64,000 bases of DNA. Source: Escherichia coli (GTDB lineage: Bacteria; Pseudomonadota; Gammaproteobacteria; Enterobacterales; Enterobacteriaceae). The translations under genes and the position numbers were made by a program. Location of the stretch: NCBI RefSeq assembly GCF_048403405.1, contig NZ_CP183129.1; one strand, 5' to 3'. The notes beneath the pieces are model-generated. The model ran no database searches. It worked only from the letters and a program-made list of their open reading frames with translations, and had not been told where the DNA came from. Below, piece after piece: positions 43,521 to 53,323 of this stretch (positions within the stretch are counted from its first letter, which is position 1; each line of letters begins with the position of its first letter).

Positions 43521-44057
43521 ATGTTACGCGATAAATTTATTCACTATTTTCAGCAATGGCGTGAACGCCAGTTAAGCCGTGGCGAACACTGGCTGACACA
43601 ACACCTGGCGGGGCGTTCTCCGCGTGAAAAAGGCATGTTACTGGCAGCGGTAGTGTTCCTGTTTAGCGCCGGATATTACGTCCTCATCTGGCAGCCGTTG
43701 AGCGAACGGATAGAACAACAGGAGACGATGTTGCAGCAGCTGGTGGCGATGAACGCGCGACTGAAGAGCGCCGCGCCGAATATTATTGCGGCGCGAAAAT
43801 CCGGCACGACAACGCCAGCACAGGTATCGCGGGTCATCAGCGACAGCGCTTCCGCGCACTCTGTGGTCATCAAACGGATTGCCGAGCGTGGGGAGAATAT
43901 TCAGGTCTGGATAGAACCTGTGGTGTTTAATGACCTGCTGAACTGGTTAAAGGCGCTGGATGAAAAGTACGCGCTGCGGGTGGCACAAATTGATGTCAGT
44001 GCGGGTGAGAAGCCTGGGATGGTGAATGTGCAGCGACTGGAGTTTGGGCGGGGGTAG
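43521..44057 (+). CDS. gspM: type II secretion protein GspM (YghD)
   Basis: 178-aa ORF MLRDKFIHYFQQWRERQLSRGEHWLTQHLAGRSPREKGMLLAAVVFLF... with single TM helix. Confidence 0.85.
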   Translation: MLRDKFIHYFQQWRERQLSRGEHWLTQHLAGRSPREKGMLLAAVVFLFSAGYYVLIWQPLSERIEQQETMLQQLVAMNARLKSAAPNIIAARKSGTTTPAQVSRVISDSASAHSVVIKRIAERGENIQVWIEPVVFNDLLNWLKALDEKYALRVAQIDVSAGEKPGMVNVQRLEFGRG

Positions 44058-44692
44058 GTATTGCCATTTCCTTAACCCCACCTGATAACCCTTAGCCCAA
44101 TGGTGAGTGCGGAACTGTCAAACCCGCTCACCGGGCTGAGTTTCGATGTAGCAAGAATTATCTCCCTCCAGACCACCACGGAATATTCGGTAACACTGAA
44201 GGAACCTGTTTTTCACCATGTAGCCTTCGTTAATCGACACCTTTCTCAGACTGTAAAGTTGCTTAAGTGTTTTGACACATTATGATTATTAATAGTTGTA
44301 ATAAATCATTGAGTAACAATTGATAGGCAAAAACATATAGGATAATTCTAGTGTGATCTGTATTTTGTGTAACCTGGAAGTTAGTAAAATTCCTGGAGAT
44401 AATCAGAAAGGGAATTTCAAATAAGCATAATAATTTCCAGTGAAACTATTCGTCGATTTTAAGAAATGTCTGCTCAGGTATATCTACTGAGGGATGGTGT
44501 TGGTTGTAACACTGGTTAAAATAAACACACAAAAATAATCAAGATGTATATTTTAATCGACAAAAATAATTACTCGCGGAATTATTGATGGGTGTTAAAT
44601 AACACCGTTTAAATGTGATGTAAATCACAAATGTGACTGTAAAGAGGGTGCTGTAGATATAAATAAGAAGTACATGAGTGAATTTTAAATAG

Positions 44693-45096
44693 GGAAATAG
44701 TTTCTTGCTAAACAATTTATTGGTAATCAATCGCATGCGTTCTGGTTTGAGATAGATTACAGGTGTTACTACGCATAAAATTCATGGGTGGTATTATAAT
44801 CAAGTAGTTAACAGTAATAGTGAAAAATAATTTCTTGCGAAATTAGCGGCCCGTTTTGAATAAGTGTGTTCCGGAGTAATCCAGAACGCATGCTGCTTTA
44901 CATCTTTTTCAAGCCATATTGGTTAAGCAAAAAGAAGTAGAAATAATTTCCTGAGAAATTAACTCAACATTCTGAAACGGCCAGTTTTCTGAAATTACCA
45001 GAAGACCGAATACATTCATGCCTGAAGAATGGATTAGAAGAAACGAGACGGAAATAGATCTATTTATCCCTGCGGAAATAATTTCTGCTGAAATTG
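44693..45096. repeat. four dispersed copies of a ~22-bp motif (GAAATAATTTCyTGmgAAATT) in the kpsM upstream region
   Basis: Copies at 44693-44718, 44822-44849, 44940-44960 and 45074-45096, spaced 117-135 bp apart, all in the same orientation. Confidence 0.6.
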
Positions 45097-45190
45097 TTTG
45101 CGGCTATTAAAAAGGTCAAACCGTCTGACTAAATTTTATCCAGTTACAAACAAGTATTACCTCCAGTGTATTGGTAGCTGTTAAGCCAGG

Positions 45191-45198
45191 GGCGGTAG
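45191..45198 (+). promoter_or_regulatory. ops element (RfaH recruitment site) in the kpsM leader
   Basis: GGCGGTAG core, 33 nt upstream of the kpsM start codon, within ccaggggcggtagcatacc. Confidence 0.75.
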
Positions 45199-45230
45199 CA
45201 TACCTGAAGAGAATAGGATCACATCACCAA

Positions 45231-46007
45231 ATGGCAAGAAGTGGATTTGAAGTCCAGAAAGTCACCGTAGAGGCATTATTTCTACGAGAAATACGAACAC
45301 GCTTTGGTAAGTTCCGTCTGGGATATCTGTGGGCGATTCTCGAACCCTCTGCGCATTTGCTGATACTGTTGGGCATTTTTGGTTACATTATGCACCGCAC
45401 GATGCCAGACATCTCGTTCCCGGTGTTTTTACTTAATGGCCTGATTCCCTTTTTTATCTTTAGCAGTATCAGCAAACGTTCTGTAAGTGCTATTGAAGCG
45501 AACCAGGGGCTGTTTAATTATCGCCCAGTAAAACCCATCGATACGATCATTGCGCGCGCCCTGCTTGAGACGCTGATTTACGTTTCTGTTTATATTCTGC
45601 TTATGCTCATTGTCAGGATGGCAGGCGAATATTTCGAGATAACAAATTTTTTACAACTTGTGGCTACCTGGAGTCTGCTGATCATTCTTTCATGCAGCGT
45701 CGGCTTAATATTCATGGTCGTTGGTAAAACCTTCCCCGAAATGCAAAAGGTTCTGCCGATACTTCTTAAGCCCCTTTATTTCATCTCCTGCATCATGTTC
45801 CCTCTGCACTCAATTCCAAAGCAATACTGGTCATATCTACTCTGGAACCCACTAGTGCATGTCGTGGAGTTAAGCCGTGAGGCCGTTATGCCTGGCTATA
45901 TTAGCGAAGGTGTGAGTCTGAACTACCTGGCAATGTTCACATTGATAACTCTGTTCATTGGTCTGGCGTTATATCGAACTCGTGAGGAGGCAATGCTGAC
46001 ATCATGA
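45231..46007 (+). CDS. kpsM: group 2 capsule ABC exporter permease
   Basis: ORF track 45171..46007; MARSGFEVQKVTVEALFLREIRTRFGKFRLGYLWAILEP... begins at ATG 45231. Confidence 0.93.
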   Translation: MARSGFEVQKVTVEALFLREIRTRFGKFRLGYLWAILEPSAHLLILLGIFGYIMHRTMPDISFPVFLLNGLIPFFIFSSISKRSVSAIEANQGLFNYRPVKPIDTIIARALLETLIYVSVYILLMLIVRMAGEYFEITNFLQLVATWSLLIILSCSVGLIFMVVGKTFPEMQKVLPILLKPLYFISCIMFPLHSIPKQYWSYLLWNPLVHVVELSREAVMPGYISEGVSLNYLAMFTLITLFIGLALYRTREEAMLTS

Positions 46008-46675
46008 TTAAGATTGAGAATTTGACGAAGTCATATCGCACGCCAACGGGTCGACATTATGTGTTTAAGGATTTAAACCTCGAAATCCCTTCAGGAAAAA
46101 GTGTTGCCTTTATTGGTCGTAATGGTGCGGGTAAATCAACGTTACTGAGAATGATTGGTGGCATTGACCGCCCCGACAGTGGAAAGATCATCACTAATAA
46201 AACAGTATCATGGCCAGTCGGCCTTGCAGGTGGATTTCAGGGAAGTTTAACCGGACGCGAAAACGTAAAATTTGTTGCGCGGTTATACGCGAAGCAAGAA
46301 GAACTGAAAGAGAAAATTGAGTTTGTTGAAGAATTTGCCGAACTTGGCAAGTACTTCGATATGCCGATTAAAACTTACTCATCAGGTATGCGATCGCGTT
46401 TAGGCTTTGGTTTAAGCATGGCATTTAAGTTTGATTATTATATCGTCGATGAAGTAACGGCGGTCGGTGATGCCAGGTTTAAAGAAAAATGCGCTCAATT
46501 GTTTAAAGAAAGGCATAAAGAATCTAGCTTTTTAATGGTTTCACATAGTTTGAATTCATTGAAAGAGTTTTGTGATGTGGCGCTATTCATACCTAGAGAT
46601 CATCAGACTTGTCTTTATCAGAATATTAATGACGCAATTAAGTTATATCAAAATGATGAAAATTTGAACATTTAG
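46004..46675 (+). CDS. kpsT: group 2 capsule ABC exporter ATPase
   Basis: 223-aa ORF with Walker A GRNGAGKST and ABC signature YSSGMRSRL; overlaps kpsM stop. Confidence 0.93.
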   Translation: MIKIENLTKSYRTPTGRHYVFKDLNLEIPSGKSVAFIGRNGAGKSTLLRMIGGIDRPDSGKIITNKTVSWPVGLAGGFQGSLTGRENVKFVARLYAKQEELKEKIEFVEEFAELGKYFDMPIKTYSSGMRSRLGFGLSMAFKFDYYIVDEVTAVGDARFKEKCAQLFKERHKESSFLMVSHSLNSLKEFCDVALFIPRDHQTCLYQNINDAIKLYQNDENLNI

Positions 46676-46686
46676 TGGAGCTAAAA

Positions 46687-47082
46687 ATGCGTAAAGTTAT
46701 CACCTTTGGTACATTTGATGTATTACATATAGGTCATATAAATATCTTAAAAAGGGCAAAAAAAATGGGGGACTATCTAATAGTTGGCGTCTCATCCGAT
46801 TATTTGAATTTCTCAAAAAAACAGAGGTATCCTGTTTATCCGGAAACTGAGCGTCTTGAAATAATTAGGTCCTTAAAATTTGTAGATGAAGTTTTTATTG
46901 AAGAGTCATTGGAATTAAAGGGCGAGTATATTAAAAAATTTAAGGCAGATATCTTAGTGATGGGAGATGATTGGCTAGGGCGATTTGATGAATATAAGGA
47001 ATTATGTGAAGTATCATATCTGCCAAGAACTGTTGGTATTTCAACGACAGAACTAATTTCTCAAATCAAAAGATATGGTTAA
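46687..47082 (+). CDS. glycerol-3-phosphate cytidylyltransferase (TagD-like)
   Basis: ORF track 46675..47082; MRKVITFGTFDVLHIGHINILKRAKKMGDYLIVGVSSD... HxGH nucleotidyltransferase motif, strong similarity to Bacillus TagD. Confidence 0.88.
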   Translation: MRKVITFGTFDVLHIGHINILKRAKKMGDYLIVGVSSDYLNFSKKQRYPVYPETERLEIIRSLKFVDEVFIEESLELKGEYIKKFKADILVMGDDWLGRFDEYKELCEVSYLPRTVGISTTELISQIKRYG

Positions 47083-47097
47083 TTTTGGAGAGGGATT

Positions 47098-48333
47098 TTG
47101 AAATTTCATTCAGAGATAAAAAACTCTATAAAAAATGCGAAGAAATTCAAAGGTATTTTATTTGTTAATATAATATCTTATCTGCTGCTAACAATTGCGA
47201 TAAGAAAAGGTCATTCGAAAGAGATTTTAAAATTTAAGTGGTTGATTTTACTTTTTGGCGGGAGTGTCGCTAAATATTTTGTTGCTAGGGCTTCATTTCT
47301 TAATGGTGATTATATATTTGCTAAGAAATTATATCAAGAGATAATTAAGGTAAACCCAATACATACTGATAGCTATTATGGGTTGGCTGATGTTTATAGA
47401 CTAACCGGAAATAAATTAGAAGCGAAGGATGTACTCATTCAAGTTTTTAATTTTTCTGATCGTTTGAAAACTTGGCTATTATTGGCGAACTTGGTTGATA
47501 CAAAAAAAGATTATGATGAATTATTGAATCATTGGGAAAGGGAATGTTCTTATAGGAATATACTTAAGTATCATTATGATGTGAACGATTACCTTATAAT
47601 TGCTGCGTTAAGGGCTAAACTATATGAAGAAGCATTAAATCGGGTTAAAGTATTGTTGGGAAGTATAAATTCTGAGGCTTTTATCTTACCAAAAACTAGC
47701 AATAAAAACTTTTCTGTTAATGCTGCTAAAATTGCATTATTAGGTCTAAAAAAAATATTGGATGCTAATAAAATACAGTTTTTTTTAGTTAGCGGAACAT
47801 TACTTGGTTGTATTCGTGATAAAAAATTACTAAAACATGACAAAGATATTGATATAGGAGTATGGAGCGAAACAAATCTATCCGTATTATCAACGAAAAT
47901 TGCTTGCTCTGGCTTGTTTGATATTGCACCTATGCGCTCACCGTATACGTTGAGAATAAAACATGTTAATGGTGTGGCAATCGACATATTTTTTCATTAT
48001 CGAGATCATGACAGCTATTGGCATGCGGGTTCAAAGCTGAGATGGAACAATACTCCATTTAATTTGATTTCTTATGGTTTTCTTGGGAACGTGTTTTTAA
48101 TACCAGAAAATTATGATTTATATTTGACTGAGAATTATGGAAACTGGATGCAAGAAAAAATGAAATTTGACTCTGCATTCGATACACCCAATCATGAAAT
48201 AGTTAATATGTATGAATTAAAAATACACGCGTATAAAAAGCTAATAATAAACATGAAAATTGGTAGTGTTGAAGGCGTTAGATATTATGAAGATAAATTA
48301 AATGAACTTGGGTGTATTATATCTAAGCCTTGA
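47098..48333 (+). CDS. two-domain protein: N-terminal TPR-like region plus C-terminal LicD-family phosphotransferase domain
   Basis: 411-aa ORF (TTG start after ggagaggg RBS); LicD-type motif SGTLLGCIRDKKLLKHDKDIDIG. Confidence 0.65.
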   Translation: MKFHSEIKNSIKNAKKFKGILFVNIISYLLLTIAIRKGHSKEILKFKWLILLFGGSVAKYFVARASFLNGDYIFAKKLYQEIIKVNPIHTDSYYGLADVYRLTGNKLEAKDVLIQVFNFSDRLKTWLLLANLVDTKKDYDELLNHWERECSYRNILKYHYDVNDYLIIAALRAKLYEEALNRVKVLLGSINSEAFILPKTSNKNFSVNAAKIALLGLKKILDANKIQFFLVSGTLLGCIRDKKLLKHDKDIDIGVWSETNLSVLSTKIACSGLFDIAPMRSPYTLRIKHVNGVAIDIFFHYRDHDSYWHAGSKLRWNNTPFNLISYGFLGNVFLIPENYDLYLTENYGNWMQEKMKFDSAFDTPNHEIVNMYELKIHAYKKLIINMKIGSVEGVRYYEDKLNELGCIISKP

Positions 48334-48386
48334 GGTCTATATAACTGAATATATTAAATATTAAAAAATAATCATGGGGACATAGT

Positions 48387-51300
48387 ATGTTGTTAACTAA
48401 GTTAGCTAAAAAAATATGCCAATCCAAAGAATATATTAACGGAATTTCTCTATACAAAAAAAAAGAATGGGAGAAGGCATTATTGTTCTTTGAGAAATCA
48501 ATCATAAAAAAAACAAAACATGCGGAGAGCTATTTTAAAGCAGGAATATGCAATCTTAAATTGCATAGATATGAAGAGGCATTTAAATATATAAGTAAAG
48601 CATTAGAATTGGAACCCTCAAATATACAGTGGAAAGAACAACTCGAACAGTGTGCAAGGCATCTTGATAAGTTAAATAATCATATGGTGAGCAAATCATC
48701 TACTGAAGAAGATTTATTAAGGGAAAAACTTAATACAGACTTTAATAATCCAAAATTACACGATAGACTTGCTGAGGTTCTTCATAAAAAAGGGCGTTGG
48801 TGGCAGGAAGTTGATACGCTGAAAAACGCAATAAAATTAGATCCTTCAATACCTGAACGTTATTTCAAACTTGGCACCGCATTAGAAAAGATGGGGCGTT
48901 TTAATGAGGCTAGTATATATTATAAAAAAGGACTTGAATTTAATAAAAAACATGATGCTATTTGGTATTATGCACTCGGATATTCGCTTGAATCTGATGA
49001 AACAAACAATGTAGAAAATGTCCGTAGTTCTAAAATAGCATATGCGACAGCTATATCGTTAGACAAAAAATTAAATAGTAATAAATTTGGAATAGGAGCA
49101 TTTCATCAATATAAGGGACGCTGGGCTAAGGCTATTGATGCGTATGAAAAACATACATCCATAAATCCATTATGTGCAGAGCTATATTATAGGCTCGGAT
49201 TATCTTATGATAGATGTTATCAATGGGATAAAGCCGCAGAGAATTATCGCAAGGCATTATCACTCGATGAAAATCATCCTTATTGGCATTATAGGCTAGG
49301 GTTTGTTTTAGAGAGAAGTCAAAAGTATCTTGATGCTGCTGTTGCTTATCAATTTGCAGCACAAAGCAATATCAAACATATCTCGATTTGGTACTATAGA
49401 TCTGGGTACGCATATGCTAAGGCTAATAAATACAGGCAATCCTGTGAAATGTATATAAAAGCATATGACTCTTCTCAGGAAATTTATGCATCACAAATAA
49501 AAGTTATTGATAACAATGATACCCATTTAAACTCTTACAGAAAAAAACTTAAATATGAAAGCAGGATTAATACTTTAGAGTCAGCAATTTCTAATTCATG
49601 CATAAATTATGGATTATGGTATGAATTAGGTAAAACATATGAATCTTCATGTAATTGGAATGATGCTGTCATTGCATATCATGAAGGTATTATGAGAAAC
49701 AATACATATACCAAAGACTATTATTATAGAATCGGATATTCATTATTCCGCGATGGGAATTATCAACAGGCATGTAATTTTTTTCGTAAAATAGAGATTT
49801 TTGGAACACCGTATGGGGCTCCTGATGATATTCTAACAAAAAATTTAACTTTTAGGAGGAATGCTACATACACTGAATTTTATGAAACATTATCAATTGA
49901 AAAAAACACTATACTTTATGAAAGCTTTCATGGTGCAAGTATTTCTTGTAACCCATATGCATTATTTTTAGATATTATTGATGATCAACGATTTGATAAT
50001 TTCAGACATATTTGGGTTATCAATAATGAAAAAAAAATCCCTGAGCAGCTAAAAAATAAAAAAAATGTATATTTTGTTTCAAGGCAAAGTGATTTATACA
50101 TGCAATGTTTGGCATCATGTGAATTTTTGATAAATAATGTTAGTTTTCCTGAGTATTTTATAAGAAAGAAAGGGCAGCGATATTTAAATACTTGGCATGG
50201 AACTCCTATAAAATTTCTTGGAAAAGATATTAAAGATGAATTTTTAGCACATAAAAATGTGGCTAGAAATTTCCTTCACACAACACATTTACTTAGTCCT
50301 AATACACACACAACTAATATTTTATTAGATAGGTATGATATATCTAATATATTTAGTGGGGAAATTAAAGAGTTAGGTTATCCTCGCATTGACCGGACTA
50401 TTAATCTTAGCTCTGAACGGAAGGAATATATACGTAGGAAAATTAATGCGAACGTTTACGATAAAGTAGTCTTGTATGCTCCAACTTGGAGAGGAATACA
50501 TGGAAAGGCAACTTTAGATATAGAAAAACTAAAGAACGATCTTGAAAAGTTGGCTGACCAGGATTGTCATATCGTTTTCCGTGGTCATCATATGATCGAA
50601 AAATTAGTAAGTGAGCAGAATATTTCTGGTATAACAATTGTTCCTTCTGAGATTGACACGAATGAGTTACTAGGGGCGATTGATATTCTTATCACAGATT
50701 ATTCAAGTATTGCTTTCGATTTTTTTGTAATGAATAGACCAGTAATTTACTATGCGTATGATATTGAGCAATATAATAATGAGAGAGGGTTGTATTTTCC
50801 TCTAAATGAATTACCTGGAACCGTTTGTTTTAATGATGTAGAGTTACTTAACACGTTAAGTGGATATCTTCGTAATGAAATATATTTCGATGCATCTAAA
50901 GGTATTGATAAGTTTTGTAAAAATGATGATGGAAGTGTATGTGGAAAAGTAATTGAATGGTTCTTCTTTGAAGAAAAATCCATATTGCTTAATAAAAACA
51001 AAAATAAAAATATACTTTTTTATATTGGTCCATTTATTCCAAATGGTATATTGTCATCATGGCTAAATCTTATATCGGTAATTGATCGTGATAAATATAA
51101 TATTTCTTTGGTTGTTGACCCAAAATTAATTCATGGTTTTCAAGAACGGTTCGAGCAGTTTAAGAGAGTCTCTCCAGATATTCAAGTCATTGGAACTTGT
51201 GGAAACATGCTTTATAATATTGAAGAGAAATGGCTTAATGATAAATTAAATAATCAATTCACCCTGGCAAGTAAGGAAATGTATGATATTCTTGATCATG

Positions 51301-52187
51301 CTTACCAACGAGAGTTTTTAAGGCTCTTTGGCTATAGTCATATTGATCATCTAATCCATTTTGAAGGTTATAATCAATCTTGGGTTATCCGGTTTGCTAA
51401 TGCTCCGAAAGATACAGTTAGAAATAAAATAATATTTCAACATAATGATAAGTTGAGCGAGTGGAGAGAAAGATTTCCATATCTTAGAGTTGTTTTTGAT
51501 TTTTATAAATCTTACAATAAAATTGTTTCTGTTTCTGAAAAAACGATGGAGTTGAACAGAGATAACTTAAGCGAATTTTTTAATATTGAGCATGATAAGT
51601 TTATTTATTGTGATAATGTTCAGAATCCAGATGAGGTGATTAAAAAATCTGATGATATTGATACAAGTGGATTTATTTTTGAAAATGATAAAATCTACTT
51701 TATAACTTTGGGCAGACTTTCAGTCGAAAAAGATCAACAAAAGTTGATTAATGCCTTTTGCAGATTACAAAAATTATATCCTAATATTGAGTTATTAATT
51801 CTTGGAGACGGCCCCCTCAAGATTGATTTACAACGCCAGATTATAACTTTAGGACTTGAAAAATCCGTACATCTTCTGGGACGCATATCAAATCCTTTTC
51901 CACTGCTAAAGAGAGCTGACTGTTTTGTCCTCTCTTCAAATCATGAAGGGCAACCTATGGTTCTTTTCGAAGCAATGATTCTAGATAAACCTATAATATC
52001 AACTGACATTACTGGTTCTAGAAGTGCTCTTGAAGGGCGTTCTGGTGTATTAGTTGAAAATAGTGTAGACGGTCTCTTCAACGGAATGCGGGACTTTATC
52101 TTGGGAAGGTTGGAGTTTAAACATTTTGACATTGAATCTTATCAAAAAAATGCTTTGTCGATGTTTTATGAAAAATGCCTTCATTAA
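48387..52187 (+). CDS. multidomain capsule polymerase: TPR repeats, TagF-like CDP-glycerol glycerophosphotransferase, GT4 glycosyltransferase
   Basis: 1266-aa ORF; TPR repeats in the first ~450 aa; TagF-family motif NTWHGTPIKFLG; GT-B/GT4 motif NHEGQPMVLFEAM near the C-terminus. Confidence 0.8.
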   Translation: MLLTKLAKKICQSKEYINGISLYKKKEWEKALLFFEKSIIKKTKHAESYFKAGICNLKLHRYEEAFKYISKALELEPSNIQWKEQLEQCARHLDKLNNHMVSKSSTEEDLLREKLNTDFNNPKLHDRLAEVLHKKGRWWQEVDTLKNAIKLDPSIPERYFKLGTALEKMGRFNEASIYYKKGLEFNKKHDAIWYYALGYSLESDETNNVENVRSSKIAYATAISLDKKLNSNKFGIGAFHQYKGRWAKAIDAYEKHTSINPLCAELYYRLGLSYDRCYQWDKAAENYRKALSLDENHPYWHYRLGFVLERSQKYLDAAVAYQFAAQSNIKHISIWYYRSGYAYAKANKYRQSCEMYIKAYDSSQEIYASQIKVIDNNDTHLNSYRKKLKYESRINTLESAISNSCINYGLWYELGKTYESSCNWNDAVIAYHEGIMRNNTYTKDYYYRIGYSLFRDGNYQQACNFFRKIEIFGTPYGAPDDILTKNLTFRRNATYTEFYETLSIEKNTILYESFHGASISCNPYALFLDIIDDQRFDNFRHIWVINNEKKIPEQLKNKKNVYFVSRQSDLYMQCLASCEFLINNVSFPEYFIRKKGQRYLNTWHGTPIKFLGKDIKDEFLAHKNVARNFLHTTHLLSPNTHTTNILLDRYDISNIFSGEIKELGYPRIDRTINLSSERKEYIRRKINANVYDKVVLYAPTWRGIHGKATLDIEKLKNDLEKLADQDCHIVFRGHHMIEKLVSEQNISGITIVPSEIDTNELLGAIDILITDYSSIAFDFFVMNRPVIYYAYDIEQYNNERGLYFPLNELPGTVCFNDVELLNTLSGYLRNEIYFDASKGIDKFCKNDDGSVCGKVIEWFFFEEKSILLNKNKNKNILFYIGPFIPNGILSSWLNLISVIDRDKYNISLVVDPKLIHGFQERFEQFKRVSPDIQVIGTCGNMLYNIEEKWLNDKLNNQFTLASKEMYDILDHAYQREFLRLFGYSHIDHLIHFEGYNQSWVIRFANAPKDTVRNKIIFQHNDKLSEWRERFPYLRVVFDFYKSYNKIVSVSEKTMELNRDNLSEFFNIEHDKFIYCDNVQNPDEVIKKSDDIDTSGFIFENDKIYFITLGRLSVEKDQQKLINAFCRLQKLYPNIELLILGDGPLKIDLQRQIITLGLEKSVHLLGRISNPFPLLKRADCFVLSSNHEGQPMVLFEAMILDKPIISTDITGSRSALEGRSGVLVENSVDGLFNGMRDFILGRLEFKHFDIESYQKNALSMFYEKCLH

Positions 52188-52289
52188 AGCATTAATCTAT
52201 ATCATGATCGTCAAGAACCATTGATTGATTTGTAAGGAGGTATACCTCCTTACAAATTAAAGTAAATTTAGTTAAGTTAATAAATAATT

Positions 52290-53318
52290 ATGAATAAGAC
52301 AGTTTTACATATTAACAGTAATATAACCACAGATGAAATTAGTTTATTGTTGCAGGCATCCAAGTATAAATATATTCATTTTGAAATAATTGGGAAAGGT
52401 GATTCATGTAAAAATTTAATTGAGTTTTCATATCATGATTATAATAAAAAAAAACAATTAATTGCTTTAACTAATGCTGGTTTTATGTCGTACGTTCATC
52501 GTGGAAATGTAACTTCATTGGTTCACTTTGATGAGATAAAAAACCTCTGGATTCCAGTAAAAGAAAAAAAGTTTTCTATTAATTCTGATGGGATTGTATA
52601 TACGTTACAACGGGCTGCATGCAAAATAAATGAAAAGCTACTGATTGTTTTCTCTCAGATGCCAATTGAACCATATTCTGCAAGCTTGTACAGATATTTT
52701 GCAAAAAACTTTTCTACAATTGATAAATATATTGGAAAAAATGTTTCTATATTAAGAGTGGCTGATATCGGAGGAATTACTGGCTCATTTTACTTAAATA
52801 CAAATGCATTACCAACCAATGCTGATAAAATTAAAAGCCTTATATTAGAAGTTATTGAACAATGTCAAATAAAATCAGATGATGTCGTACTTTATGGATG
52901 CTCAAAAGGAGGTACGGCAGCCGTTTATCATGGATTAACTAATAATTATAAAATAGTAGCGGTGGATCCTATATTAAATGATGAACATTATATAAATAAT
53001 AAAAATGATCTACATTTAATAGAGGGAGTTTTTCCTCAGCCAAAGGAAGAGTTATTCAAAAAAGTCATTGATGACTATTTAATAAACTATAAGGGGAATA
53101 TGTCTTATTTTATTGTTTCACAAAATTCGGAACAGTACAAATATATTATGGATATTATAAATCCAATCATCACTTATTCAACAGTTGCAAATAGCATCAA
53201 TGATAAAATTAAAAGCCATCCTGATGTTGGGCCACAATCAATTCATATGATTGTAGCAATGATTAATATGGCTCTTTCTGGAATAAAACTATCTAACGGC
53301 ATCTATGATTTTGTTTAA
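52290..53318 (+). CDS. hypothetical protein with serine-hydrolase-like GxSxG motif (possible polymer-modifying enzyme)
   Basis: 342-aa ORF in AT-rich region 2; motif VVLYGCSKGGTAAVYHG resembles an alpha/beta-hydrolase nucleophile elbow. Confidence 0.55.
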   Translation: MNKTVLHINSNITTDEISLLLQASKYKYIHFEIIGKGDSCKNLIEFSYHDYNKKKQLIALTNAGFMSYVHRGNVTSLVHFDEIKNLWIPVKEKKFSINSDGIVYTLQRAACKINEKLLIVFSQMPIEPYSASLYRYFAKNFSTIDKYIGKNVSILRVADIGGITGSFYLNTNALPTNADKIKSLILEVIEQCQIKSDDVVLYGCSKGGTAAVYHGLTNNYKIVAVDPILNDEHYINNKNDLHLIEGVFPQPKEELFKKVIDDYLINYKGNMSYFIVSQNSEQYKYIMDIINPIITYSTVANSINDKIKSHPDVGPQSIHMIVAMINMALSGIKLSNGIYDFV

Positions 53319-53323
53319 ATAAT

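What the first reader, a model, noticed from the sequence alone, without database searches (positions are those of the whole stretch)
48387..52187. 1266-aa single-chain TPR-TagF-GT4 capsule polymerase
One polypeptide combines about 450 aa of TPR repeats, a TagF-type glycerophosphotransferase domain (WHGTPIK motif) and a GT4 glycosyltransferase domain (EGQPMVLFEAM). This fused architecture would alternately add glycerol-phosphate and hexose, like the teichoic-acid-like capsule polymerases reported in some Gram-negative pathogens. The TPR module is a plausible chain-length or oligomerisation scaffold.
Basis: partly seen in the sequence, partly recalled or inferred. Interest (0 to 1): 0.7.

Follow-up and report, generated by a model that had tools for sequence, protein, structure and literature searches.

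The report
E. coli K2 capsule polymerase c3694

Summary
The ORF is real and exactly as described: window 48387-52187 (+), 1266 aa, no internal stops. It has N-terminal TPR repeats (Pfam hits aa 19-470), a TagF-type CDP-glycerol glycerophosphotransferase domain (PF04464, aa 502-857, E 1.5e-77; WHGTPIK at 603-609) and a C-terminal GT4/GT-B domain (PF00534, E 1e-25; EX7E within EGQPMVLFEAM at 1187-1197).

The DNA differs by one base (L914 instead of S914) from c3694 of E. coli CFT073 (O6:K2:H1). The gene lies in serotype-specific region 2 of a group 2 kps capsule locus.

Litschko et al. 2018 (PMC5974469) list this protein (AAN82142.1) in the TagF-like/GT-B capsule polymerase family. Diao et al. 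2017 (PMC5442458) showed that deleting c3694 abolishes K2 capsule. The homologue Cps3D has a crystal structure (8QOY; phmmer E 1e-249 here).

Catalytic residues are invariant in 54 fused homologues, and the fusion is intact in diverged syntenic loci, so it is not an artefact.

Verdict: observation confirmed, interpretation supported, already known, low interest.

Open points: no in vitro assay of c3694 was found, and there is no CpsA-type primer enzyme in the window.

Side finding: the last region 2 gene encodes an exported beta-propeller resembling phage receptor-binding proteins.

The parts
48387..52187 (+). Whole ORF, 1266 aa + stop: K2 capsule polymerase (CFT073 c3694 / WP_000927647.1 allele with L914)
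48387..48704 (+). N-terminal basic helical segment, aa 1-106 (net charge +8 over aa 1-100). It corresponds to the positively charged helical bundle plus long helix of Cps3D. Pfam TPR hits occur at aa 19-84.
   Evidence: PMC11666461
48705..49787 (+). TPR solenoid, aa 107-467: about 20 long antiparallel helices with one low-confidence loop at aa 364-375
   Evidence: AF2 pLDDT 91.9; Pfam TPR hits
49839..50996 (+). TagF-like glycerol-3-phosphate transferase domain (CgoT equivalent), aa 485-870, including a linker helix
   Evidence: PF04464 E 1.5e-77; alignment to Cps3D and TagF; Foldseek to TagF 3L7x, TMt 0.72-0.79
50196..50198 (+). Codon of H604 (in WHGTPIK). It aligns with TagF H444 and Cps3D H479, the proposed catalytic base.
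   Evidence: invariant in 54 homologues
50586..50588 (+). Codon of H734 (in FRGHH). It aligns with TagF H584.
   Evidence: invariant
51006..52184 (+). GT-B / GT4 retaining glycosyltransferase domain (CgaT equivalent), aa 874-1266
   Evidence: PF00534 E 1e-25; alignment to Cps3D 749-1137, E 7e-95; Foldseek to BshA, TarM and other GT4 enzymes
51714..51731 (+). R1110...K1115 (GRLSVEKD), the nucleotide-diphosphate-binding Arg/Lys pair typical of GT4 enzymes
   Evidence: R, E and K invariant
51945..51971 (+). EX7E motif, E1187...E1195 (within EGQPMVLFEAM)
   Evidence: both Glu invariant
45231..46675 (+). kpsM and kpsT (region 3; ABC transporter permease and ATPase), immediately upstream on the same strand
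   Evidence: (RefSeq annotation)
46675..47082 (+). 131-135 aa cytidylyltransferase, the likely glycerol-3-phosphate cytidylyltransferase that makes CDP-glycerol (CpsB equivalent). RefSeq misnames it pantoate-beta-alanine ligase.
   Evidence: TIGR01518 E 2.7e-37, below the curated cutoff; PMC8262930
47098..48333 (+). 411 aa TPR + LicD-family protein, equivalent to CpsC (the poly(Gro3P) linker polymerase in A. pleuropneumoniae)
   Evidence: PMC11666461
52290..53318 (+). 342 aa XcbB/CpsF family protein, a probable capsule O-acetyltransferase
   Evidence: NF033892 E 2.6e-89; PDB 9HVZ (acetyl-CoA complex) E 4e-53 and weak SacC hit; PMC13171606
53324..54319 (+). 331 aa exported five-bladed beta-propeller related to phage receptor-binding proteins. 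It is the last gene of region 2 and its role is unknown.
54481..62431 (-). kpsS, kpsC, kpsU (kdsB), kpsD, kpsE, kpsF (region 1, convergent)

Best explanation
The ORF encodes the K2 capsule polymerase of extraintestinal pathogenic E. coli, a soluble cytoplasmic three-module enzyme of the TagF-like/GT-B (CpsD) family.

Proposed mechanism:
- The C-terminal GT4 retaining glycosyltransferase module transfers alpha-galactose from UDP-Gal onto the free hydroxyl of the terminal glycerol.
- The central TagF-like module, with H604 as general base, transfers sn-glycerol-3-phosphate from CDP-glycerol onto that galactose.
- Alternation of the two steps gives poly(galactosyl-glycerol-phosphate).
- CDP-glycerol is supplied by the small cytidylyltransferase two genes upstream.
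- The N-terminal TPR solenoid holds the growing or primer chain so that elongation is processive. [quoted passage not shown]
- The finished chain is O-acetylated by the XcbB/CpsF protein and exported by KpsMT/KpsED.

Shown here: domain architecture, catalytic residues, homology to the crystallised Cps3D, conservation of the fusion, and genomic context.

Shown by others: gene deletion abolishes K2 capsule, and the homologues Cps3D, Cps7D, Cps11D and Bt188 polymerise with CDP-Gro plus UDP-Gal.

Inferred: the same chemistry and the TPR role for this particular protein.
For: Identity and genetics:
- The DNA is 1 nt (L914 vs S914) from CFT073 c3694.
- Litschko 2018 lists c3694 (AAN82142.1) among TagF-like/GT-B polymerases, with 44-49% domain identity to characterised enzymes.
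- Deleting c3694 abolishes K2 antigen on blots, ELISA and EM (PMC5442458).

Domains, structure and catalytic residues:
- Pfam finds TPR + PF04464 + PF00534.
- phmmer to Cps3D 8QOY gives E 1.1e-249 over the whole length.
- The TagF catalytic residues H444 and H584 align to H604 and H734.
- Cps3D H479 is the proposed base.
- The GT-B module aligns with the Cps3D CgaT domain, with EX7E and the R/K pair conserved.
- All these residues are invariant in 54 fused homologues.
- The AF2 model has pLDDT 91.9 and pTM 0.90, and its top Foldseek hit is 8QOY at E 9e-86.
- No transmembrane segment is predicted.

Context and family biochemistry:
- The gene sits in low-GC (~31%) region 2, between kpsMT and kpsSCUDEF.
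- Its neighbours are a cytidylyltransferase, a TPR-LicD protein and an acetyltransferase.
- The same five-gene region 2 occurs in two diverged loci.
- The TPR role and the poly(Gro3P) primer were demonstrated for Cps3D and Cps7D (PMC11666461).
Against: - No in vitro polymerisation data for c3694 itself were found in the searchable literature. Its donor specificity and linkage positions are therefore inferred from the K2 structure and from homologues.
- The K2 polymer is reported to contain both galactopyranose and galactofuranose units (title of Fischer et al. 1982, ref. 43 in PMC5974469). The enzyme has only one GT domain, and region 2 has no UDP-galactopyranose mutase gene. How Galf gets in is unexplained.
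- The window holds no stand-alone CpsA-type (PF04464) transition transferase. The priming step cannot simply be copied from the A. pleuropneumoniae model.
Confidence: 0.93

Rival explanations
1. The long ORF is an assembly or sequencing artefact, or a recent accidental fusion of separate TPR, TagF and GT4 genes.
For: None found.
Against: The identical ORF is present and intact in 140 complete E. coli genomes. Orthologues at 71%, 66% and 57% identity are 1263-1266 aa and fused, in independent metagenome assemblies. Fifty-four clusters down to 33% identity, from Gamma-, Beta- and Alphaproteobacteria and Arthrobacter, have all three modules. The crystal structure of Cps3D shows the same single chain.
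Confidence: 0.01
2. The enzyme is not the chain polymerase. It would be a bifunctional primer or transition enzyme that adds only one Gal-Gro-P unit, with another protein (for example the TPR-LicD protein) doing the polymerisation.
For: The window has no CpsA-type transition transferase, so some protein must take over priming. LicD-type CpsC is itself a polymerase, of Gro3P, in A. pleuropneumoniae.
Against: This ORF carries the only glycosyltransferase domain found among the five region 2 proteins, so nothing else there can insert galactose into every repeat. The homologues Cps3D and Cps7D are processive polymerases. Deleting c3694 removes all K2-reactive material.
Confidence: 0.04
3. The TPR module is mainly an oligomerisation (dimerisation) scaffold, rather than a primer- or polymer-handling module.
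For: In Cps1B and Cps3D the TPR domain mediates oligomerisation or dimerisation.
Against: The TPR region here has about 20 long helices over aa 107-467. That matches the long TPR of Cps7D (20 helices, residues 145-477), which folds back on itself and makes Cps7D monomeric. Cps3D residues 287-352 align twice to the query (aa ~295-354 and 407-470), showing roughly 115 extra residues here. The monomer model has pTM 0.90. TPR truncations in Cps3D and Cps7D lose processivity and poly(Gro3P) elongation, and the Cps3D truncations still dimerise.
Confidence: 0.15

Closest known systems
Cps7D of Actinobacillus pleuropneumoniae serotype 7 (ACE62291.1, 1277 aa), a TagF-like/GT-B capsule polymerase
   Same: Same three-module order (TPR, then TagF-like CgoT, then GT-B CgaT) and nearly the same length (1266 vs 1277 aa). 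Both have a long TPR of about 20 helices. Domain identities are 48.6% (TagF-like) and 49.1% (GT-B) according to PMC5974469 Fig. S4/S6. Both are encoded in a group 2 capsule locus with a Gro3P cytidylyltransferase and a TPR-LicD protein.
   Different: Cps7D makes ->3)-alpha-Gal-(1->1)-Gro-(3-P. K2/K62 shares its backbone with App9, NmH and T15 (Beynon 1992 title), and the NmH backbone equals that of App3; that backbone is 4-linked Gal and 2-linked Gro. The App7 locus has CpsA (a PF04464 transition transferase), and this window has none. Cps7D has been characterised in vitro; no such data were found for c3694.
Cps3D of A. pleuropneumoniae serotype 3 (PDB 8QOY, 1138 aa)
   Same: Homologous over the whole length (E 1.1e-249; Foldseek E 9e-86, TMt 0.73). 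The catalytic His (H479 in Cps3D, H604 here), EX7E and R/K pair are the same. It probably has the same linkage chemistry as K2 (Gro3P onto O4 of Gal, Gal onto O2 of Gro).
   Different: Cps3D has a shorter TPR (residues 100-357, 14-15 helices) and is a dimer through it. The protein here has about 115 more TPR residues. Domain identity is 44-45%.
TagF of Staphylococcus epidermidis (PDB 3L7I-M), wall teichoic acid poly(glycerol-phosphate) polymerase
   Same: The central domain is a PF04464 member (E 1.5e-77), matches TagF at E 1e-39 and TMt about 0.75, and has both catalytic histidines. It uses the same CDP-glycerol donor chemistry.
   Different: TagF is a membrane-associated homopolymerase with glycerol as acceptor. 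Here the acceptor is galactose, and the domain is fused to a GT4 module and a TPR module.
TarM / BshA-type GT4 retaining glycosyltransferases
   Same: The C-terminal domain has PF00534, EX7E, the R/K pair and a GT-B fold.
   Different: Those are stand-alone enzymes that decorate a finished polymer (TarM) or a small molecule (BshA). Here the GT4 module is a backbone-forming half of a polymerase.

Membership tests
TagF-like/GT-B group 2 capsule polymerases (CpsD family; Litschko 2018) | TagF-like (PF04464) domain with the active-site motifs, including the two catalytic histidines | tested here: met
   PF04464 E 1.5e-77. H604 and H734 align with TagF H444 and H584. W603, H604, G605, P607, K609, H734 and D771-Y-S-S774 are invariant in 54 homologues. 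I checked the two histidines and surrounding motifs, not each of the five published motifs one by one. PMC5974469 Fig. S5 reports all five for c3694.
TagF-like/GT-B group 2 capsule polymerases (CpsD family; Litschko 2018) | GT-B folded glycosyltransferase domain C-terminal to the TagF-like domain, with conserved Lys/Arg | tested here: met
   PF00534 E 1e-25. Aligned to Cps3D CgaT at E 7e-95. R1110, K1115, E1187 and E1195 are invariant. The AF2 model has two Rossmann-like halves over aa 874-1266.
TagF-like/GT-B group 2 capsule polymerases (CpsD family; Litschko 2018) | TPR domain on the same polypeptide (N-terminal in the TagF/GT-B subgroup) | tested here: met
   Pfam TPR hits at aa 19-470. AF2 shows about 20 helices over aa 107-467.
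TagF-like/GT-B group 2 capsule polymerases (CpsD family; Litschko 2018) | Encoded in the serotype-specific region of an ABC-transporter-dependent (group 2, kps) capsule locus | tested here: met
   Flanked by kpsMT and kpsSCUDEF. GC is about 31% against about 52% in the flanks.
TagF-like/GT-B group 2 capsule polymerases (CpsD family; Litschko 2018) | Polymerises poly(glycosyl-glycerol-phosphate) from CDP-glycerol and a UDP-hexose | not testable with these tools
   Only indirect support: c3694 deletion abolishes K2 capsule (PMC5442458), the K2 polymer is Gal/Gro/phosphate, and the homologues Cps3D, Cps7D, Cps11D and Bt188 are active in vitro.
A. pleuropneumoniae-type CpsA/B/C/D pathway (Litschko 2024) | CpsB: glycerol-3-phosphate cytidylyltransferase in the locus | tested here: met
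   The 135-aa ORF 46675-47082 matches TIGR01518 at E 2.7e-37 (127.6 bits, below the 165.4 equivalog cutoff).
A. pleuropneumoniae-type CpsA/B/C/D pathway (Litschko 2024) | CpsC: N-terminal TPR + LicD-family (PF04991) Gro3P polymerase | tested here: met
   The 411-aa ORF 47098-48333 has TPR hits at aa 58-116 and LicD PF04991 at aa 223-255 (E 4e-4), plus NF045866 (LicD-type Mf1) at E 2.6e-10. The LicD matches are short and weak, so this is architecture-level support only.
A. pleuropneumoniae-type CpsA/B/C/D pathway (Litschko 2024) | CpsA: stand-alone PF04464 transition transferase that puts the first Gro3P on poly-Kdo | tested here: not met
   None of the other region 2 proteins hits PF04464. An HMM built from 54 CgoT domains finds only c3694 among all 201 stop-to-stop segments of 80 aa or more in the window. 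A very divergent CpsA, or one encoded elsewhere in the genome, is not excluded.
CAZy GT4 (retaining GT-B glycosyltransferases) | GT-B fold, Glycos_transf_1 C-terminal domain, EX7E motif | tested here: met
   (BshA, TarM and BA1558 among the structural hits). Formal CAZy assignment was not checked.

The most novel reading that the evidence does not exclude
The K2 system may differ mechanistically from the A. pleuropneumoniae paradigm in two ways.

1. It has no CpsA-type transition transferase. Either the TPR-LicD protein or c3694 itself would then start the chain on the poly-Kdo glycolipid.
2. The single GT4 module of c3694 may accept both UDP-Galp and UDP-Galf, or a Galf-forming step acts on the polymer. 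Either would produce the mixed pyranose/furanose K2 polymer from one active site.

The evidence excludes neither point.
Probability: 0.25. Interest if true: 0.5.

Novelty: already known. Interest (0 to 1): 0.15.

Why it matters
K2 is one of the commoner capsule types of uropathogenic and bloodstream E. coli (ST73, CFT073, ATCC 25922). Its polymerase could serve as a tool for enzymatic synthesis of vaccine antigen and as a possible anti-virulence target. The gene, its architecture, its family and its requirement for capsule formation are already published, so this finding adds no new biology. Three questions remain:
- Direct biochemistry of c3694, including how galactofuranose enters the polymer.
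- How the chain is primed without a CpsA homologue.
- What the exported phage-RBP-like propeller at the end of the operon does.

Tried and rejected
I split it into two overlapping halves.
- Sequence search for homologues: the word-indexed search did not return the named Actinobacillus, Neisseria or Bibersteinia enzymes, probably because TPR words dominated the candidate list. I used the PDB entry 8QOY and the published identity matrices instead.
- ORF-level annotation of the K2 cluster: I looked in the supplements of the 2026 kTYPr paper, but two-character K-type labels cannot be searched and nothing usable came back.
- Primary K2 structure paper (PMC294457): not held. A literature search for K2 and galactofuranose gave only irrelevant hits.
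- Papers on c3693, c3695 and c3696: the search returned only noise.
- The 331-aa downstream protein as a divergent CpsA (GT-B fold): rejected. Its AF2 model is an all-beta propeller.
- Artefactual fusion, and a primer-only enzyme: considered and rejected (see rival explanations).
- UDP-galactopyranose mutase (glf) elsewhere in K2 genomes: not searched. The E. coli collection has no protein mode, and I could not filter hits by genome.
- The genome contigs and metagenome-contig scans: not spent, because the fusion question was already settled.
Full report
**1. The observation**

It has no internal stops or ambiguous bases, and its GC content is 31%. A GGGGA Shine-Dalgarno-like motif lies about 8 nt upstream of the ATG.

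It gives:
- multiple TPR_1/2/8/11 hits between aa 19 and 470;
- Glyphos_transf PF04464 at aa 502-857 (E 1.5e-77);
- Glycos_transf_1 PF00534 and Glyco_trans_1_4 PF13692 over about aa 1099-1240 (E 1e-25 and 1e-24).

**2. Where the window comes from**

The ORF is identical, or nearly so, to a gene present once per genome in 140 of 5426 complete E. coli genomes. These include CFT073, ATCC 25922 and a strain labelled O6:K2:H1. Against CFT073 there is one nucleotide difference, giving L914 here and S914 in CFT073.

In CFT073 the gene is C_RS17515 / WP_000927647.1, annotated 'CDP-glycerol glycerophosphotransferase family protein'. Its old locus tag is c3694 (GenBank AAN82142.1).

The surroundings are a classical group 2 kps capsule locus:
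- kpsM and kpsT lie immediately upstream on the same strand.
- A low-GC block (30-34% against about 52% in the flanks) holds five tightly spaced co-directional genes at 46675-54319. This is region 2.
- kpsS, kpsC, kpsU, kpsD, kpsE and kpsF converge from the other side.

**3. What is already published about this gene**

Litschko et al. [quoted passage not shown] They list 'c3694 of E. coli K2 strain CFT073 (GenBank AAN82142.1)' among the TagF-like/GT-B members (Fig. S3). Its TagF-like domain is 44-49% identical, and its GT-B domain 45-49% identical, to CshC, Cps3D, Cps7D, CszC and the Bibersteinia enzymes (Fig. S4/S6). The paper states that all family members carry the five TagF active-site motifs.

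Only Cps1B, Cps12B, Ccs2, Cps3D and Cps7D were tested biochemically there. Cps11D and Bt188 were tested later (PMC8262930).

Diao et al. 2017 (PMC5442458) deleted c3694 in CFT073. [quoted passage not shown] The deletion abolished K2 antigen on immunoblots, in whole-cell ELISA and by electron microscopy.

Region 2 as a whole is known as the ksl operon, and its deletion gives capsule-null strains (PMC12488582).

Litschko et al. 2024 (PMC11666461) solved the crystal structure of Cps3D and worked out the pathway in A. pleuropneumoniae:
- CpsB makes CDP-glycerol.
- CpsA (PF04464) puts the first Gro3P on the poly-Kdo glycolipid.
- CpsC (TPR + LicD) extends it to a poly(Gro3P) linker.
- CpsD (TPR, CgoT, CgaT) builds the Gal-Gro-P capsule on that linker.

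In that work the TPR domain was required for processivity and for elongating poly(Gro3P).

**4. Independent checks made here**

Sequence and structure:
- phmmer against PDB sequences puts Cps3D (8QOY) first, with E 1.1e-249 across the whole protein. TagF follows at E 2.5e-39. TarL, TarM and other GT4 enzymes score for the respective domains.
- In the domain alignments, H604 aligns with TagF H444 and with the Cps3D histidine that the authors number H479 and propose as catalytic base. H734 aligns with TagF H584.
- The C-terminal domain aligns with Cps3D CgaT over 390 residues (E 7e-95). The GR-x4-K motif (R1110, K1115) and EX7E (E1187, E1195) are conserved.
- In an alignment of 54 full-length fused homologues (33-72% identity), the following are invariant: W603, H604, G605, P607, K609, H734, D771-Y-S-S774, R1110, E1114, K1115, E1187, G1188, Q1189 and E1195 (positions there are offset by -100).
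- An AlphaFold2 model of aa 101-1266 built on that alignment is confident (mean pLDDT 91.9, pTM 0.90).
- The model shows about 20 long antiparallel helices over aa 107-467, a linker helix, a two-lobed TagF-like domain to about aa 870, and a GT-B domain over aa 874-1266.
- Foldseek returns 8QOY first (E 9e-86, TMt 0.73), then TagF (TMt about 0.75), and BshA and other GT4 enzymes.
- No 19-residue window reaches transmembrane-like hydrophobicity. The first 100 residues carry a net charge of +8, like the basic N-terminal helical bundle described for Cps3D.

Is the fusion real?
They are not.
- Orthologues at 71%, 66% and 57% identity are 1263-1266 aa.
- Two of them lie on independent metagenome contigs with the same gene order: kpsM, kpsT, cytidylyltransferase, TPR-LicD, polymerase, 342-aa protein, ~330-aa protein, then kpsS, kpsC, kpsD and kpsE on the opposite strand. 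Region 2 proteins there are 50-89% identical to those of the window.
- One of these loci sits in a different chromosomal site, next to lplA, serB, radA and nadR-like genes.
- More distant fused homologues carry source names from Alkalimonas, Comamonas, Pseudomonas, Caballeronia, Methylorubrum, Sphingobium and Arthrobacter.

**5. The other region 2 genes**

- *46675-47082* is a small cytidylyltransferase. Its closest NCBIfam model is glycerol-3-phosphate cytidylyltransferase (TIGR01518, E 2.7e-37, below the equivalog cutoff). The RefSeq name 'pantoate-beta-alanine ligase' is a misnomer.
- *47098-48333* has TPR repeats followed by a weak, short LicD-family match. This is the architecture reported for CpsC.
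- *52290-53318* belongs to the XcbB/CpsF family (E 2.6e-89). It matches PDB 9HVZ, deposited as an XcbB/CpsF protein with an acetyl-CoA complex (E 4e-53), and matches weakly the meningococcal O-acetyltransferase SacC. This fits the 'putative acetyltransferase' said to distinguish K2ab from K2a (PMC13171606).
- *53324-54319* is discussed in section 8.

No stand-alone PF04464 (CpsA-like) protein is present. Pfam and NCBIfam find none among the other region 2 proteins. An HMM built from the 54 CgoT domains hits only c3694 among all 201 stop-to-stop segments of 80 aa or more in the 64-kb window.

**6. Most likely mechanism**

By homology with Cps3D and Cps7D:
- The GT4 module transfers alpha-Gal from UDP-Gal to the terminal glycerol.
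- The TagF-like module, with H604 as base, transfers sn-Gro3P from CDP-glycerol to that galactose.
- Repetition gives poly(Gal-Gro-P).

The K2/K62 backbone is reported to be the same as that of App9, NmH and T15 (title of Beynon et al. 1992), and the NmH backbone equals that of App3. The linkages are therefore expected to be those of Cps3D: Gro3P onto O4 of Gal and Gal onto O2 of Gro.

The TPR module is long, like that of Cps7D (20 helices, residues 145-477). In Cps7D it folds back on itself and makes the enzyme monomeric. Cps3D has a shorter TPR and dimerises through it. In one search, Cps3D residues 287-352 aligned to two places in the query (about aa 295-354 and 407-470), which shows roughly 115 extra TPR residues here. 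I therefore predict a monomer whose TPR serves primer and polymer handling and processivity, not oligomerisation. This is inference.

Domain architecture, catalytic residues and context are shown here. The requirement for capsule is shown by others. The chemistry for this particular protein is inferred.

**7. What does not fit or is still open**

- I found no in vitro data for c3694 itself.
- K2 is reported to contain galactofuranosyl as well as galactopyranosyl units (title of Fischer et al. 1982, cited in PMC5974469). There is only one GT module, and no mutase gene in region 2. I could not check the rest of the genome.
- The absence of CpsA means the priming step must differ from the A. pleuropneumoniae model or use a gene elsewhere.

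None of these undermines the family assignment.

**8. Side observation: the last region 2 gene**

The last region 2 gene (53324-54319, 331 aa, 'hypothetical protein') has no Pfam, NCBIfam or PDB sequence match.

- It starts with a signal-peptide-like segment that is conserved in kind in both diverged orthologues.
- A search of 1.84 billion representatives found 179 relatives. Most are 500-1400-aa proteins in which this ~300-aa unit is an internal domain.
- All five 700-1020-aa relatives sampled, and less clearly a sixth of 1395 aa, score as phage tail spike or tail fibre proteins in PHROGs. The protein itself hits phrog_22693 (E 8e-17).
- tblastn finds it at 25-37% identity in tail-fibre genes of coliphages (Kayfunavirus, Cbunavirus EK8), Salmonella and Erwinia phages, and Staphylococcus/Mammaliicoccus phages.
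- An AF2 model (pLDDT 90.8, pTM 0.88) is an all-beta propeller.
- From my own knowledge, the phi11 RBP propeller binds glycosylated wall teichoic acid.

An exported propeller of that type inside a locus that makes a teichoic-acid-like capsule suggests a K2-binding or K2-trimming protein. I did not find it discussed in the papers I read.

**9. Verdict**

The feature is already known: this protein is named in the founding paper of its family, its deletion phenotype is published, and a 35-45% identical homologue has been crystallised. Interest is low for the finding as given.

Noticed in passing
[not shown]
   Followed up: partly
window 44000-62500 (whole kps locus): The locus has a CpsB-like cytidylyltransferase, a CpsC-like TPR-LicD protein and the CpsD-like polymerase. 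It has no stand-alone CpsA-type (PF04464) transition transferase. An HMM of CgoT domains hits only c3694 in the whole 64-kb window. How the K2 chain is started on the poly-Kdo glycolipid is therefore unclear.
   Followed up: partly
window 46675-47082 (+): RefSeq names this 131-135-aa protein 'pantoate--beta-alanine ligase' or 'FAD synthase family protein'. Its best family match is glycerol-3-phosphate cytidylyltransferase (TIGR01518, E 2.7e-37; panC only 9e-4), which fits the CDP-glycerol need of the polymerase. This is a likely misannotation.
   Followed up: yes
window 52290-53318 (+): The XcbB/CpsF family protein (342 aa) matches PDB 9HVZ, deposited with an acetyl-CoA complex (E 4e-53), and weakly the NmA O-acetyltransferase SacC. 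It is probably the K2ab O-acetyltransferase that PMC13171606 reports as frameshifted in K2a. It is intact in this window.
   Followed up: partly
window 48387-52187; proteins P0026, P0027, P0031: Full-length TPR-TagF-GT4 homologues (36-38% identity, 96-99% coverage) are named from Arthrobacter (Gram-positive Actinobacteria) and from Alpha- and Betaproteobacteria (Methylorubrum, Sphingobium, Comamonas, Caballeronia). The fused architecture is thus much wider than the Gram-negative pathogen capsules in which it was described.
   Followed up: no
window 50750-51130 (codon 914 at 51126-51128): The window's allele has L914 where CFT073 and most other K2 genomes have S914 (one T/C difference). The residue lies in the N-terminal half of the GT-B domain. 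Only strain THO-006 matched at 100% among the listed records.
   Followed up: partly
window 40403-44057 (+): Upstream of the capsule locus lie a frameshifted IS4 transposase and truncated or frameshifted gspK/gspL type II secretion genes, as annotated in CFT073. This marks the insertion and decay zone next to the kps island.
   Followed up: no
L002 1-6400 and 22560-23792: In a metagenome contig with a 57% identical polymerase, the same kpsMT / region 2 / kpsSCDE block sits between nadR-like and ABC-F (ettA-like) genes and lacks kpsF and kpsU. The cassette therefore moves between chromosomal sites and hosts.
   Followed up: no
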